A DNA stretch of 64,000 bases from a virus (IMGVR_UViG_3300029415_000001), one strand, 5' to 3'. Positions 16,346 to 19,043 are shown, counted from the stretch's first letter. Numbers and translations are program-made. The notes: generated from the letters alone by a model not told the origin.

Positions 16346-16543
16346 GTGCTCTTTGATATAGCGCACATTAACATCGGGAGAATAATCGTGTCATCCAAGG
16401 CTAATTATGAATCGCTGGCATCGATCATGCCGCGTAATGAACAGGAAGCAGATGCTGTAGTGGACCCGGTAATCGCTGAAATGAATGCTCGCCTGGAGGC
16501 TGAATTTGCAGCTGAGAATGAACATACCACCCAGGGCAACTAG
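16346..16543 (+). CDS. hypothetical small protein
   Basis: GTG start in track; alternative GTG at 16388 with GGGAG RBS. Confidence 0.3.
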   Translation: MLFDIAHINIGRIIVSSKANYESLASIMPRNEQEADAVVDPVIAEMNARLEAEFAAENEHTTQGN

Positions 16544-17147
16544 GACTGTTTTTTGTGTCGGTAGCGGTCCGTCACTCACTCGTGAGGACTGTGCTGCTAT
16601 AGAAAAAACTGGCTGTTCAATCATCGCGGTTAACAATTCCTGGCAGATGTTCGATGACATTTATGCCTTATACGCCGGTGATTTGTCATGGTGGAAGCAA
16701 TACGGATCCACCATACCGGGAGGGAGATTCCGCAAAGTGACAGCCAACCTGGCGGCGGCGAAATCATTTTCGTTGGAGTACAGGCGATATTGTGGACCGG
16801 CGGAAGGGGTAAATAGCGGCGCGCAGGCTATCAGTCTGGCGGCTGAATCAGGGGCTGAAGTAGTTGTATTAGTCGGCTATGACTGTTCTCTGCAAAACGG
16901 CCTTCATTGGCATGGCGCGCATCCTCAAGCCCTACGGAATCCAACGCAGGTGTCTATTTCAAAATGGCAACAGCAGTTCCTGGATACCCGCAAAAAACAC
17001 GCAGATTTACATATTTTGAATGCAAGTAGGAGCAGTGCAATTCAATGTTTCCCAAGAATAAATTTAGAGGCAGTGATCGCGTTATTATCGTCGGCAGTGG
17101 CCCAAGCGCCGCAAACTTTGTTGCGCCGCGCGGAGTGCCGATTATAG
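16485..17147 (+). CDS. hypothetical protein, paralogue A (GSGPS / IIAVN motif family, possibly DUF115-like)
   Basis: 220 aa; likely start ATG 16518; FCVGSGPSL...IIAVNNSW. Confidence 0.5.
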   Translation: MLAWRLNLQLRMNIPPRATRTVFCVGSGPSLTREDCAAIEKTGCSIIAVNNSWQMFDDIYALYAGDLSWWKQYGSTIPGGRFRKVTANLAAAKSFSLEYRRYCGPAEGVNSGAQAISLAAESGAEVVVLVGYDCSLQNGLHWHGAHPQALRNPTQVSISKWQQQFLDTRKKHADLHILNASRSSAIQCFPRINLEAVIALLSSAVAQAPQTLLRRAECRL

Positions 17148-17671
17148 CGGTCAATGGGGCCATCGACTGGCTTAACCGCGCTTCTTATTTTTTCACACTT
17201 GATCCATCGCCAGACAATATGCGGCGCGTTGGTCGTGGCCGCCGTCGCCGTGGTGTTTGTTATTGCATGGCATTACCCGATGTTAAAGAACGTGAAGTCA
17301 GAGACGGCGTTCTGTGCTTCCGTCGTGTGGCTGAACGAGGCACTGAGCCAAAAAATACGAATTCTCCAGAGTGGTGGGCATGGCGCTGGTCCGGACATTT
17401 CGGCCTTTGCGAAGATGAGAATGAAATTGCCAGCGGCAATAGTGCATATGGTGCTCTGAACCTGGCTTTCCATATCGGATTCAAACATGTAGCCCTGGTG
17501 GGCGTTGACGCTACGCAAGAACCACGCGTTCACTCCGGCGGAACGCCAAAAAATCTAAGTCACCTGCCTTTGTTATTCCAGTCTGCGCGTGAACAGATTG
17601 ACGTTGTTTCATGCGGGAAAATGGGAGGTATTCCGCAGATGACTCTTAAAGAATGGCTGAAGAATACATGA
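17045..17671 (+). CDS. hypothetical protein, paralogue B (GSGPS / IIAVN motif family)
   Basis: 208 aa; [27 protein letters not shown]; overlaps paralogue A by about 100 nt in another frame. Confidence 0.5.
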
Positions 17672-18345
17672 CGGCACCAACAATTTATCACCGTATCGAC
17701 GGTACCAAATACAGGAATATCTGGGTTGTTGGTGATCTGCATGGTTGCTACACCAGACTGATGTCCGAACTCCATCGTGTGGATTTTGACCCTGCGCAGG
17801 ATTTACTGATATCGGTCGGCGACCTTATCGATCGCGGCACCGAAAATGTTAAATGCCTGGAGCTATTACAGATGCCATGGTTCAGAGCGGTTATGGGCAA
17901 CCATGAGCGGCTGATGATTGATGCGTTAAGTCCTGATGGCAACGTGAATAACTGGCTAATGAATGGCGGTCAATGGTTCTTCATGCTGGACGCTGATCAG
18001 GAAATATTAGCCAGGGCGCTGGTGGAGTTGGTAAGACGACTGCCCTATATCATTGAGTTGAACACCGGGCAAGAAACTATCGTTATAGCCCATGCCGACT
18101 ATCCGGATAATGAATATCAATTCGGTAAGGAGGTGCCGCTTTTCAACGTTGTCTGGGCGCGCGAGCGTATCAGTGATTCGATGGATGATATTGGTGGCGA
18201 AATTTCGGGCGCAGATCGTTTTATCTTTGGTCACACTCCGGTGAAAAGCCCGAAGACATTCTGGAATCAGCAGTATATCGACACTGGTGCCGTATTTTGC
18301 GGAAACCTGACATTGATGAAAGTGAAAGGTGATGGTGCAGCATGA
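17653..18345 (+). CDS. Ser/Thr protein phosphatase, lambda-PPase-like metallophosphatase (P1 pap-like)
   Basis: GDLHG, GDLIDRG, GNHE metallophosphoesterase motifs. Confidence 0.8.
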
Positions 18346-19043
18346 AGATTGCTTTAGTTTTTCGCTCTGGTGGTGACTATAACGCTTCCGATGTGCAGTG
18401 GCTGGTTAATCAACTGCCAAAAGGCTATGAAATTATTTGCCTGACAGACCTGAAGCGTTTACATGTACCTGGCGTCAAAGTTGTCCCATTGATCAACCAG
18501 TGGCAAAAGTGCCGTGGCTGGTGGGCGAAAATCGAGTTGTTCCGACCGGATATAACCGATGATCTGTTCTATCTGGATTTGGACACGGTTATTGCCGGTG
18601 ATATACGCCCAATCCTAGAGCATCCACCAACCAGCTTCACCATGCTTAGGGATTTTTACCATCCACAATATCGTGGCAGCGGTGCCCTGTGGATACCAAA
18701 TAGTGTTAAAGCGCATATCTGGAGTTCATTCTGGCAAGATCCGGAAGGTTGGATTTCTCGTTGTGTCACTACTGAGTGCTGGGGTGACCAGGGGTTCTTA
18801 CGAAAGGTTATGGGCGATGATACACCAGCATTTCAGGATCTGTATCCAGGATGGTTTGTAAGTTACAAGGCCGATGTTGTGGAACCTGGTTCGAAATATG
18901 CGAGCGCGCGTTACTCCAGGGGGAATGGGGCATTACCAAAAGACTGCCGAATAATCTTTTTCCACGGCAAACCGCGACCTCGCGAAGTGTCAGAGGATTG
19001 GCTTCCCCTTATCAGCTCGTTTTTTGAGCGAGAATCAGAATAA
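18342..19043 (+). CDS. hypothetical protein (possible nucleotide-sugar transferase; DLD motif)
   Basis: 233 aa ORF, overlaps upstream stop (ATGA coupling). Confidence 0.4.

What the first reader, a model, noticed from the sequence alone, without database searches (positions are those of the whole stretch)
16485..19043. Overlapping tandem paralogues with GSGPS...IIAVN motifs next to a phosphatase and a DxD-type protein
Two about 210-aa paralogues overlap by about 100 nt in different frames, which suggests recent duplication or an unresolved frameshift. They are followed by a lambda-PPase-like phosphatase and a protein with a DLD motif. GSGPS-type N-termini recur in DUF115-like transferases, raising the possibility of a small modification module.
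Basis: inference. Interest (0 to 1): 0.35.

Follow-up and report, generated by a model that had tools for sequence, protein, structure and literature searches.

The report
Phage P1 pmgO-pmgP-ppp-pmgQ glycosyltransferase cassette
These are the known but uncharacterised phage P1 genes pmgO, pmgP, ppp and pmgQ: two anciently diverged Maf/WaaZ-like sugar transferases that really do overlap, a lambda-type phosphatase inserted only in the P1 lineage, and a GT8-type glycosyltransferase, and the three transferases form a cassette conserved in many phages of Gram-negative bacteria whose target is still unknown.

Summary
The window is a P1-like phage-plasmid, 97.5% identical to P1. Coordinates 16485-19043 are exactly pmgO (220 aa), pmgP (208 aa), ppp and pmgQ.

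- **Overlap:** pmgO and pmgP overlap by 103 nt, with pmgP in the -1 frame. The overlap is not an error. All 83 P1-like contigs checked keep both ORFs without indels, and distant relatives keep a 7-109 nt overlap.
- **Paralogy:** the two genes are ancient paralogues, not recent duplicates. BLASTP aligns only 36 residues; the profile-profile comparison gives E 1.8e-12.
- **PmgO and PmgP:** both belong to the DUF115/MptE-like superfamily. The PmgO model's best PDB match is the flagellin glycosyltransferase Maf. E. coli WaaZ (Kdo transferase) hits the same Pfam family.
- **PmgQ:** it has a GT8-like fold (Gat1, glycogenin, LgtC) with an invariant DxD and a conserved His.
- **Conserved module:** O, P and Q co-occur in most phage and prophage loci examined, across several Gram-negative phyla. 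They usually lie in late regions, sometimes with extra glycosyltransferases or sugar methyltransferases. Natural O-P fusions exist.
- **Ppp:** it is close to lambda phosphatase and occurs only in the P1 subclade, so it is an add-on.

All four genes are dispensable for plaque formation.

Best reading: a lytic-phase glycan-building cassette. It probably uses CMP-Kdo-type and UDP-hexose donors on a protein acceptor. LPS-core remodelling is the main rival.

The parts
16328..16344 (-). C1 repressor operator Oppp (former Op83) ahead of pmgN. It marks the operon as repressed in the lysogen.
   Evidence: The P1 annotation places Oppp here. The window sequence matches P1's operator at 16 of 17 bases. 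The predicted PpmgN -35 element (16289-16294) is identical to P1. The -10 element (16310-16315) differs by one base.
16388..16543 (+). pmgN, a 51-aa ORF that opens the operon. Its 3' end overlaps the annotated pmgO start.
   Evidence: P1 annotation; PHROG 2350, function unknown. CRISPRi knock-down lowered plating, but the knockout is reported as non-essential (PMC10695390).
16485..17147 (+). pmgO, a DUF115/MptE-like (Maf/WaaZ-type) predicted glycosyltransferase of 220 aa. M12 at 16518 is a plausible true start. The tail after about residue 202 is not conserved.
   Evidence: Pfam MptE-like is below threshold for this protein but hits 17 of 17 family members. PHROG 4603. AF2 model pLDDT 86.5, with Foldseek top hit Maf 5MU5, E 1.8e-4, probability 1.0. 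Invariant residues are N50, D66, W69, W70, S111, G112, G131, Y132, D133, C134, S135, H141, H143, G144, H146, W161, N179 and R182.
17045..17147 (+). The 103-nt pmgO/pmgP overlap, with pmgP in the -1 frame. An AGGAG Shine-Dalgarno sequence lies at 17028-17032, 12 nt before the pmgP ATG.
   Evidence: The overlap is identical in architecture in 83 of 83 P1-like loci. Substitutions downstream of GSGPS are synonymous in the pmgP frame (5 of 6) and non-synonymous in the pmgO frame (6 of 6). Overlap length is 7-109 nt in relatives.
17045..17671 (+). pmgP, the second DUF115/MptE-like paralogue (208 aa). It is more conserved than PmgO and carries an insertion of about 40 residues (PmgP roughly 63-110) relative to PmgO.
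   Evidence: PHROG 2111; 328 homologues found, most listed ones more than 50% identical. Invariant residues include N37, D53, G131, N132, S133, A134, G153, D155 and H173. The hhalign comparison with the PmgO family gives E 1.8e-12.
17653..18345 (+). ppp, a lambda-type Mn-dependent Ser/Thr protein phosphatase. Its likely true start is the ATG at 17668, which forms an ATGA overlap with the pmgP stop.
   Evidence: Pfam Metallophos 8e-16; PHROG 246 NinI-like; PDB 1G5B E 9e-95, full length; start context. It is present only in P1-subclade loci.
18342..19043 (+). pmgQ, a GT8-like (GT-A fold, DxD) predicted retaining glycosyltransferase of 233 aa. Its start overlaps the ppp stop (ATGA).
   Evidence: PHROG 1962 glycosyltransferase. 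The family profile hits PDB 6MW5 (Gat1) at E 1.5e-6 and GlyE at 0.0045. AF2 model pLDDT 93.8; the 50 best Foldseek hits listed are GT8-like (GT-A) glycosyltransferase chains: Gat1, glycogenin, WbbM, LgtC, GlyE, UGGT and LARGE1. Invariant residues are D36, D79, L80, D81, T82, G148, D149, S174, K176, H208 and G209.
19045..19061 (+). C1 operator OpmgRa with the PpmgR promoter. It starts the next transcription unit and so marks the 3' limit of this operon.
   Evidence: P1 annotation. The window matches the P1 operator at 16 of 17 bases.

Best explanation
The region is the C1-repressed pmgN-pmgO-pmgP-ppp-pmgQ operon of a P1-like phage-plasmid.

**Shown**
- pmgO and pmgP are anciently diverged paralogues of the DUF115/MptE-like (Maf/WaaZ-type) glycosyltransferase superfamily.
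- pmgQ has a GT8-like DxD glycosyltransferase fold.
- The three genes form a cassette conserved in phages and prophages of Gram-negative bacteria.
- ppp is a lambda-phosphatase gene inserted into the cassette only in the P1 subclade.
- The pmgO/pmgP overlap is genuine. It is long here because the pmgO stop lies late, inside the conserved 5' end of pmgP. The last 18 or so PmgO residues are unconstrained read-through.

**Inferred**
- The overlaps (103, 19 or 4, and 4 nt) couple translation, so the enzymes are made together once C1 repression is lifted.
- PmgO and PmgP act as a pair, probably a heterodimer.
- Each transfers a CMP-activated ulosonic acid. In E. coli K-12 that can only be Kdo from CMP-Kdo.
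- PmgQ adds an alpha-linked hexose from a UDP-sugar, using Mn2+ held by D79/D81/H208.
- Together, and in relatives with extra glycosyltransferases and sugar O-methyltransferases, they build a short glycan.
- The acceptor is most likely a protein made in the lytic phase: a virion protein in phages, or an Ig-like-domain surface protein in the chromosomal copies.
- Ppp acts independently as a protein phosphatase.
For: - **Identity with P1 genes and regulatory sites:**
- **Paralogy:**
- **DUF115 membership:**
- **PmgO fold:** the top Foldseek hit is Maf, followed by the GT29 sialyltransferase ST6GALNAC2 and thiamin pyrophosphokinase.
- **WaaZ link:** WaaZ, which PMC8151780 describes as the third-Kdo transferase, hits the same Pfam family. 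The fusion protein P0051 carries a faint precomputed WaaZ_KDO_III hit.
- **Kdo as a possible donor:** Maf enzymes can O-link Kdo from CMP-Kdo to Ser/Thr when expressed in E. coli (bioRxiv 10.1101/2020.06.03.131540; PMC11339370).
- **PmgQ as GT8-like:**
- **Trio co-occurrence with variable gene order:** Entero-, Alpha-, Beta- and Gammaproteobacteria, Bacteroidota and Gemmatimonadota.
- **Optional extras:** a fourth GT-A, a GT2-like protein, a SAM methyltransferase and an FkbM methyltransferase. A TylF-type methyltransferase fusion also exists.
- **Tandem fusions of two DUF115 domains:** P0051; P0230, P0249, P0312 and P0271.
- **Late-region placement:** directly after the major capsid gene (L016, L104), after terminase or portal genes (L017, L107), and next to the lysis cassette (L003, L004, L112).
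- **Chromosomal copies:** in Pseudescherichia the three genes are interleaved with inverse-autotransporter Big_1 proteins. A PmgO-Big_1 fusion exists.
- **Non-essentiality:** PMC10695390.
- **Overlap integrity and frame-specific constraint:**
Against: - No activity, donor or acceptor has been demonstrated for any of these proteins.
- The window's own PmgO and PmgP score below Pfam's gathering threshold (23.4 and 20.9 bits against 34.6).
- Similarity to WaaZ itself is weak: hhalign E 0.003-0.008 with probability below 11%.
- Profile searches of PDB sequences with PmgO and PmgP found nothing.
- The Foldseek TM-score to Maf is only 0.56.
- Protein versus LPS as acceptor is not resolved. The GT8 hits include LPS/LOS enzymes (LgtC, WbbM). 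WaaZ is an LPS enzyme. All hosts carry LPS.
- To my knowledge, glycosylation of P1 virion proteins has never been reported.
- The Big_1 association rests on one clade of genomes and one fusion protein whose genomic origin I could not inspect.
Confidence: 0.4

Rival explanations
1. The cassette remodels the LPS core. PmgO and PmgP add extra Kdo or Kdo-like residues to the inner core, as WaaZ does. PmgQ adds an alpha-hexose, as the GT8 core enzymes do. The change masks or truncates the LPS-core receptor. Infected or lysing cells and their debris then stop adsorbing progeny or competing phages.
For: - WaaZ falls in the same Pfam superfamily, and P0051 has a faint WaaZ_KDO_III hit.
- The GT8 structural neighbours include LgtC and WbbM.
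- Every host seen is a Gram-negative, LPS-bearing lineage.
- Some PmgO homologues carry a C-terminal domain with a GT9-like 'GLGD' motif (P0216, P0341). This is my reading of the sequence; Pfam found no hit.
- PmgO and PmgP are basic (pI 9.3 and 9.5), as peripheral-membrane LPS glycosyltransferases often are.
- P1 adsorbs to the LPS core (established knowledge).
Against: - In P1 the operon lies behind a C1 operator, so it should be off in lysogens. Classical receptor-masking conversion genes are expressed in the lysogen.
- In several prophages the cassette sits inside the structural operon, between the capsid gene and the head-tail connector genes.
- New LPS needs time to reach the surface within a lytic cycle.
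- The closest structural match of PmgO is the protein glycosyltransferase Maf. No solved WaaZ structure turned up for comparison.
- Chromosomal copies are interleaved with adhesin genes rather than waa genes.
Confidence: 0.3
2. PmgO and PmgP are not sugar transferases. They are MptE-like or thiamin-pyrophosphokinase-like phosphotransfer enzymes, or the cassette glycosylates nucleic acid (DNA hypermodification) rather than protein or LPS.
For: - The Pfam family is named after an archaeal pterin diphosphokinase.
- Thiamin pyrophosphokinase appears among the Foldseek hits with probability 0.97.
- Phage glycosyltransferases are known to put Kdo, heptose and hexoses on 5hmC in DNA (bioRxiv 10.1101/2023.12.21.572611).
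- In P1, phosphatases (Ppp, Pap) lie nearby.
Against: - The invariable partner is a GT8-like glycosyltransferase, and the optional partners are further glycosyltransferases and sugar-type O-methyltransferases.
- Neither phosphatase is conserved with the cassette.
- No cytosine methyltransferase plus TET-like dioxygenase pair was seen next to the cassette.
- P1 DNA is a standard restriction and cloning substrate with only methyl modifications known (established knowledge).
- The top structural hits are glycosyltransferases.
Confidence: 0.1
3. Programmed -1 ribosomal frameshifting in the overlap makes a PmgO-PmgP fusion protein in addition to the separate products.
For: - pmgP is in the -1 frame.
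- Two X_XXY_YYZ heptamers (T_TTC_CCA at 17048-17054 and A_AAT_TTA at 17060-17066) lie in the pmgO frame just after the pmgP ATG.
- In-frame natural fusions of the two domains exist elsewhere.
Against: - A_AAT_TTA occurs only in P1 proper. T_TTC_CCN is a by-product of the CFP/MFP codons. Several relatives with 94-100 nt overlaps have no heptamer.
- A shift there would delete the conserved C-terminal helix of PmgO (E195 region), which natural fusions keep.
- pmgP has its own ATG and an AGGAG Shine-Dalgarno sequence.
- The -1 frame is the usual frame for overlapping bacterial genes.
Confidence: 0.05
4. One reading: the overlap reflects a recent tandem duplication or an uncorrected sequencing frameshift, and the two ORFs are really one gene.
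For: The overlap is unusually long (103 nt), and both proteins share the GSGPS...IIAVN motifs.
Against: - All 83 independent P1-like contigs have the same 220-aa and 208-aa ORFs with no indels.
- The P1 reference genomes annotate both genes.
- Each ORF is full length against its own homologue family.
- The two families are only distantly related.
- Relatives in other phyla keep two separate genes with overlaps of 7-109 nt.
Confidence: 0.02

Closest known systems
Maf (motility accessory factor) flagellin nonulosonic-acid O-glycosyltransferases, e.g. Magnetospirillum Maf, PDB 5MU5
   Same: - The central catalytic domain is of the same DUF115/MptE-like type.
- It is the best structural match of the PmgO model.
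- The N-terminal G-x-G-P-S loop and an Asp...Ser...Asp triad match. The Ser-to-Asp spacing is 22 residues in PmgO (D66/S111/D133) and PmgP (D53/S133/D155), against 23 between CbMaf residues S334 and D357, which mutagenesis showed to be required. The residue mapping is my inference from spacing, not an alignment.
- Maf can use CMP-Kdo.
   Different: - Maf proteins are about 600 residues long, with flanking flagellin-binding domains. PmgO and PmgP are bare domains of about 200 residues that occur as a pair.
- There is no flagellin context and no nonulosonate biosynthesis genes nearby.
- The genes are phage-borne.
- Sequence identity is about 12%.
WaaZ (RfaZ), the Kdo III transferase of the E. 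coli K-12 / Salmonella LPS core. I recall it as CAZy family GT73; this was not checked here.
   Same: It is a small, single-domain, cytoplasmic enzyme from enterobacteria. It hits the same Pfam MptE-like family below threshold. It uses CMP-Kdo, the only CMP-ulosonate available in the P1 host. P0051 has a faint WaaZ_KDO_III Pfam hit.
   Different: Direct similarity is marginal: hhalign E 0.003-0.008 with low probability, limited to the NSG...G-x-D motif region. WaaZ is 283 aa, is encoded in the waa locus, and works alone.
GT8 retaining glycosyltransferases: Gat1 (Skp1 alpha-galactosyltransferase, 6MW5), glycogenin, GlyE, LgtC and WbbM. I recall that the LPS core enzymes WaaO and WaaJ are also GT8.
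   Same: PmgQ shares the GT-A fold, a DxD (D79/D81) with a distal His (H208) as candidate metal ligands, and about the same size as the glycogenin/Gat1 catalytic domain.
   Different: Identity is 12-16%. The Pfam Glyco_transf_8 model does not detect PmgQ. The W60-W61-x-K63 and S174-Y-K176 motifs are specific to the family. Donor and acceptor are unknown.
Glycosyltransferases of mycobacteriophages that glycosylate capsid and tail proteins. I recall this work as Freeman et al. 2023; it is echoed in PMC11256854.
   Same: They are phage-encoded, non-essential glycosyltransferases expressed in lytic growth, proposed or shown to decorate virion proteins.
   Different: The enzyme families, hosts (Actinobacteria) and sugars differ. 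For the P1 cassette, virion glycosylation is only a hypothesis.
Bacteriophage lambda Ser/Thr protein phosphatase (NinI, PDB 1G5B)
   Same: Ppp aligns over its full length at E 9e-95. The GDLHG, GDLVDRG-type and GNHE metallophosphatase motifs are aligned and conserved between Ppp and lambda PPase.
   Different: It lies in a glycosyltransferase operon of P1 rather than in the lambda nin region. It is present only in the P1 subclade.

Membership tests
DUF115 / MptE-like (Pfam PF01973) | Match to the family HMM at or above the gathering score (34.6 bits) | tested here: inconclusive
   The window's PmgO scores 23.4 bits and PmgP 20.9 bits, both below the cut-off. All 17 PmgO-family members hit the model, the best at 44.6 bits for P0051. 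Many homologues carry a precomputed PF01973 hit.
DUF115 / MptE-like (Pfam PF01973) | Maf/sialyltransferase-like variant GT-A (Rossmann-type) fold | tested here: met
   AF2 model of PmgO: pLDDT 86.5, pTM 0.83. Foldseek rank 1 is Maf 5MU5 (E 1.8e-4, probability 1.0, TMq 0.56). ST6GALNAC2 scores probability 0.97-0.98. PmgP was not modelled; its fold is inferred from the hhalign E of 1.8e-12 against PmgO.
DUF115 / MptE-like (Pfam PF01973) | N-terminal G-x-G-P-S loop plus conserved acidic and Ser residues needed for Maf catalysis | tested here: inconclusive
   The motifs are invariant or nearly so in both families. In PmgO, D66, S111 and D133 are invariant and G28, P29 and S30 are nearly invariant. 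In PmgP, P20, D53, S133 and D155 are invariant and G19 is nearly invariant. Correspondence to the Maf residues rests on spacing only. No residue-level structural alignment was available.
WaaZ-type Kdo transferases (PF27901 WaaZ_KDO_III; I recall CAZy GT73) | Significant sequence similarity to WaaZ | tested here: not met
   hhalign of the PmgO and PmgP profiles against E. coli WaaZ gives E 0.008 and 0.003, with probabilities of 4.9% and 10.4%. The only other link is a 'faint' precomputed PF27901 hit on P0051. PF27901 is not in the local Pfam copy.
WaaZ-type Kdo transferases (PF27901 WaaZ_KDO_III; I recall CAZy GT73) | Transfer of Kdo from CMP-Kdo to the LPS inner core | not testable with these tools
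   This needs biochemistry or LPS mass spectrometry.
GT42 / 'alpha-2,3-sialyltransferase' (the PHROG and RefSeq label of PmgO) | Specific similarity to Cst-I/Cst-II-type sialyltransferases, and availability of CMP-sialic acid | tested here: not met
   No Cst-type structure appears among the 50 best Foldseek hits or in the PDB sequence-profile searches. E. coli K-12 makes no CMP-Neu5Ac (established knowledge). The label should be read as 'sialyltransferase-like fold' only.
GT8 retaining glycosyltransferases (for PmgQ) | GT-A fold closest to GT8 structures | tested here: met
   AF2 model: pLDDT 93.8, pTM 0.91. The 50 best Foldseek hits listed are GT8-like (GT-A) glycosyltransferase chains, E 3.5e-9 to about 1e-6. 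The family profile hits 6MW5 at E 1.5e-6.
GT8 retaining glycosyltransferases (for PmgQ) | DxD motif plus a distal His as divalent-metal ligands | tested here: met
   D79, L80, D81 and H208 are invariant in 26 homologues. Their role as metal ligands is inferred.
GT8 retaining glycosyltransferases (for PmgQ) | Match to Pfam Glyco_transf_8 (PF01501) at the gathering score | tested here: not met
   The window's PmgQ has no hit. The L004 orthologue scores E 0.31.
Lambda-type PPP-family protein phosphatase (for Ppp) | Full-length similarity to lambda phosphatase and the metallophosphatase motifs | tested here: met
   1G5B E 9e-95 over residues 3-221; Pfam Metallophos 59.4 bits against a cut-off of 21.5.

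The most novel reading that the evidence does not exclude
P1 and many other phages of Gram-negative bacteria use a minimal, paired Maf-like enzyme (PmgO and PmgP) together with a GT8 enzyme (PmgQ). With these they O-glycosylate a virion protein, or in domesticated chromosomal copies an Ig-like-domain adhesin. The glycan is short, contains Kdo, and is drawn from the host's CMP-Kdo pool. This would be the first virion glycosylation system described for phages of Gram-negative hosts, and a natural case of Kdo O-linked to protein.
Probability: 0.2. Interest if true: 0.7.

Novelty: new member of a known kind. Interest (0 to 1): 0.4.

Why it matters
P1 is a textbook phage, yet this operon still carries the placeholder label 'putative morphogenetic function'. 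This analysis shows three things:
- The O-P-Q trio is a cassette conserved across phyla and embedded in late regions.
- The two DUF115 proteins are obligate partners, since fusions recur.
- The phosphatase is an unrelated insertion.

That turns four anonymous genes into a testable hypothesis: phages of Gram-negative bacteria build a Kdo/hexose-type glycan on a protein or on LPS during lytic growth. If the acceptor is a virion protein, this would extend phage virion glycosylation beyond mycobacteriophages. That matters for immune recognition of therapeutic phages. It would also supply very small Maf-like enzymes for glyco-engineering.

If nothing of the kind is found, the region remains an ordinary accessory operon that is already annotated.

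Tried and rejected
- **PDB sequence searches.** Profiles of PmgO and PmgP found nothing meaningful. Structure prediction was needed.
- **First profile comparison of PmgO against PmgP.** The fusion protein P0051 in the alignment inflated the score. I repeated it without the fusion.
- **Modelling both domains and their interface.** I tried an alignment led by P0051, but MAFFT stacked the PmgO homologues on the PmgP half. I modelled PmgO alone instead.
- **Link to WaaZ.** Direct hhalign comparison is too weak to claim membership.
- **Frameshift-fusion idea.** The slippery heptamers are not conserved.
- **Sequencing-error idea.** Rejected by 83 of 83 intact P1-like loci.
- **Defence-system link.** PADLOC gave no hits.
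- **DNA hypermodification.** I considered it after reading the NEB preprint and judged it unlikely for P1.
- **The 2004 P1 genome paper.** It is not held in the library, so I used its GenBank annotation instead.
- **First viral-contig scan.** It returned only near-identical P1-like contigs. A second scan led by a Pseudomonas homologue gave 13 informative loci.
- **Literature searches.** No functional study of pmgO, pmgP or pmgQ turned up beyond essentiality screens and transcriptomics.

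
Full report
**What the window is.** Megablast of 15400-21300 finds 19 P1-type phages at 97-98% identity over the whole query. In the GenBank and RefSeq P1 records the matching genes are pmgL, pmgM, pmgN, pmgO, pmgP, ppp, pmgQ, pmgR, pmgS and pap. The finding's coordinates, 16485-19043, run exactly from the pmgO start to the pmgQ stop. The genes are therefore known and named, but their only functional label is 'putative morphogenetic function'.

P1's regulatory sites are present. The C1 operator Oppp at 16328-16344 matches P1 at 16 of 17 bases. The PpmgN promoter lies just upstream. OpmgRa and OpmgRb lie directly after pmgQ. The unit is thus a C1-repressed operon, pmgN-pmgO-pmgP-ppp-pmgQ, and it should be silent in the lysogen. 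A genome-wide CRISPRi screen, and the knockout library it cites, class pmgO, pmgP, ppp and pmgQ as non-essential for plaque formation (PMC10695390).

**The observation.** The ORFs are as described: 220 aa (16485-17147) and 208 aa (17045-17671). They share 103 nt, and pmgP lies in the -1 frame. Both carry GSGPS followed by IIAVN. The phosphatase and the DLD protein follow, with overlaps of 19 nt (or 4 nt) and 4 nt.

**Is the overlap an artefact or a recent duplication? No.**
- In 83 independent P1-like loci, both ORFs have the same lengths, the same ATG and no indel.
- Those loci show seven sequence variants of the overlap. Downstream of GSGPS, 5 of 6 substitutions are synonymous in the pmgP frame and all 6 change the amino acid in the pmgO frame.
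- PmgO homologues stop being alignable after about residue 202, and many end there.
- Across relatives the overlap is 7, 11, 13, 40, 43, 49, 70, 94, 100, 103 or 109 nt. It depends only on where the pmgO stop falls within the 5' end of pmgP.

The long overlap in this window is therefore an unconstrained PmgO tail reading through the constrained start of pmgP. pmgP has its own ATG, with an AGGAG sequence 12 nt upstream.

I considered a programmed -1 frameshift, because two X_XXY_YYZ heptamers lie just after the pmgP ATG. They are not conserved. A shift there would also remove a conserved PmgO helix that natural fusions retain.

The two proteins are distant relatives. BLASTP aligns only 36 residues (E 0.003). 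The profile-profile comparison gives 97.7% probability and E 1.8e-12 over 163 columns.

**What the proteins are.**
- *PmgO and PmgP.* They hit Pfam MptE-like (DUF115) below threshold. All 17 PmgO relatives scanned hit that family. The AF2 model of PmgO (pLDDT 86.5) is closest to the flagellin glycosyltransferase Maf (5MU5, E 1.8e-4, probability 1.0). The next relevant hits are the sialyltransferase ST6GALNAC2 and thiamin pyrophosphokinase.
- *Link to WaaZ.* E. coli WaaZ is described as the transferase of the third Kdo (PMC8151780). It falls in the same Pfam family. Direct similarity to PmgO and PmgP is marginal.
- *PmgQ.* Its model (pLDDT 93.8) matches GT8-like (GT-A) glycosyltransferase structures across the 50 best hits: Gat1, glycogenin, WbbM, LgtC, GlyE, UGGT and LARGE1. 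Its family profile reaches Gat1 at E 1.5e-6. D79-L-D81 and H208 are invariant.
- *Ppp.* It is a full-length homologue of lambda phosphatase (E 9e-95).

**What travels together.** A tblastn survey covered 18 genome loci, 13 diverse viral contigs and two contigs found through homologues. PmgO, PmgP and PmgQ co-occur in nearly all of them. The exceptions are mostly short contigs, or loci where PmgO was not detected within the flank (L018, L020, L023).
- *Hosts.* Enterobacteriaceae, Zhongshania, Commensalibacter, Methylophilaceae, Brevundimonas, Sinomicrobium (Bacteroidota) and Longimicrobiales.
- *Gene order.* It varies: O-P-Q, O-Q-P, Q-P or dispersed.
- *Ppp.* It is found only in P1-subclade elements. 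A more distant P1-like contig (L105) has pmgQ directly after pmgP.
- *Optional members.* A fourth GT-A protein, a GT2-like protein, a SAM methyltransferase and an FkbM methyltransferase.
- *Family size.* An exhaustive HMM search finds 6712 PmgO-family cluster representatives at E<=1e-3.
- *Fusions.* Several proteins carry two tandem DUF115 domains (P0051, P0230, P0249, P0312, P0271). P0335 is fused to a TylF-type O-methyltransferase. P0232 is fused to a Big_1 Ig-like region.

Recurrent O-P fusion argues that the two paralogues work as a pair.

**Where the cassette sits.**
- Directly after the HK97-type major capsid gene (L016, L104).
- After terminase or portal genes (L017, L107, L109).
- Beside the lysis cassette (L003, L004, L112).
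- Before head-tail connector genes (L016, L018).
- In five Pseudescherichia/Enterobacteriaceae genomes the three genes are chromosomal. There they are interleaved with inverse-autotransporter and other Big_1 proteins, with no phage genes in the flanks.

I saw no sugar-nucleotide synthesis gene next to the cassette in any locus inspected. The donors should therefore be common host metabolites. All hosts are Gram-negative and so make CMP-Kdo. Maf enzymes expressed in E. coli can O-link Kdo to Ser/Thr.

**Most likely mechanism.** The shown facts are the fold and family assignments, the conserved trio, the fusions, the late-region placement, the operator, the overlaps and the non-essentiality. The rest is inference:
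- Once C1 repression is lifted, the enzymes are made together through translational coupling.
- PmgO and PmgP, as a pair, transfer Kdo-type sugars from CMP donors.
- PmgQ adds an alpha-hexose.
- The product is a short glycan on a protein acceptor.

I put about 0.75 on 'glycan-building cassette' and about 0.4 on the full statement including a protein acceptor.

The main rival, at about 0.3, is LPS-core remodelling. It is supported by the WaaZ and LgtC/WbbM relatives and by the restriction to LPS-bearing hosts. It is weakened by lytic-only expression in P1 and by placement inside structural operons.

**Comparison with the known, and novelty.** The genes are annotated. RefSeq already calls PmgO an 'alpha-2,3-sialyltransferase' and PmgQ a 'glycosyltransferase'. 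The first label overstates what the evidence shows (see the membership rows). I found no functional study.

What this analysis adds:
- The paralogues are ancient and paired.
- The overlap has a simple explanation.
- The trio is a conserved cassette that spans phyla.
- ppp is a lineage-specific insertion.

This makes the region a new member of a known kind, namely phage-borne glycosyltransferase cassettes and Maf-like enzymes. It is moderately interesting, and the acceptor question is open and testable.

Noticed in passing
window 21450-27503 (- strand): A complete type IC restriction-modification system lies between pap and pdcB/lpa: hsdR (1038 aa, with the EcoR124_C domain), hsdS and hsdM. It replaces most of P1's pmgT...pdcA block; phd/doc appear to remain in the roughly 1 kb before pdcB. 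P1 itself keeps only short remnants of hsd-flanking sequence here. Phage vB_EcoM-673R5 has the same arrangement at 98.6% identity.
   Followed up: partly
window 17653-17670: The annotated ppp start (17653) is probably five codons too early. The ATG at 17668 forms an ATGA overlap with the pmgP stop. From the sixth residue after that ATG, the protein aligns with lambda phosphatase residue 3 onwards.
   Followed up: partly
window 16485-16520: The pmgO start is uncertain. Most of residues 1-17 have pLDDT below 50, there is no Shine-Dalgarno sequence before 16485, and homologues begin about 12-20 residues later. M12 (ATG at 16518) is a plausible start. It would cut the pmgN/pmgO overlap from 59 nt to 26 nt.
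   Followed up: no
protein names of homologues: The typo 'norphogenetic' from the 2004 P1 annotation of pmgM has spread into NCBI and UniRef product names ('norphogenetic protein') for PmgO and PmgP homologues in many genera.
   Followed up: no
L105:6478-7010: In a distant P1-like contig of 101 kb, the PmgO match is split between two frames at about position 6783, while pmgP and pmgQ are intact and adjacent with no ppp. This is either a pseudogene or a sequencing error.
   Followed up: no
L010-L014 (Pseudescherichia / Enterobacteriaceae chromosomes), e.g. L010:1357-12419: Chromosomal copies of pmgO, pmgP and pmgQ are interleaved with a 1178-aa inverse autotransporter (IAT_beta plus seven Big_1 repeats), a 999-aa Big_1/RCC1 protein and a 494-aa Big_1 protein. 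No phage genes are nearby. A separate PmgO homologue (P0232) is fused to a Big_1-like region.
   Followed up: partly
P0216 and P0341 (PmgO-family representatives): These PmgO-like domains are fused to a C-terminal domain of about 300 aa. It has no Pfam hit, but its 'GLGD...P' start resembles GT9 heptosyltransferases. P0221, P0223 and P0224 carry a repeated 'GYCY...L.PW.G.V' mini-domain of unknown nature.
   Followed up: no
window 15743-16321 and 20680-21186: PmgM has a VRR-NUC nuclease-like region below threshold (E 3e-4). Pap matches the HAD phosphatase domain of polynucleotide kinase-phosphatase (E 5.8e-11), not a classical acid phosphatase as its name suggests.
   Followed up: no
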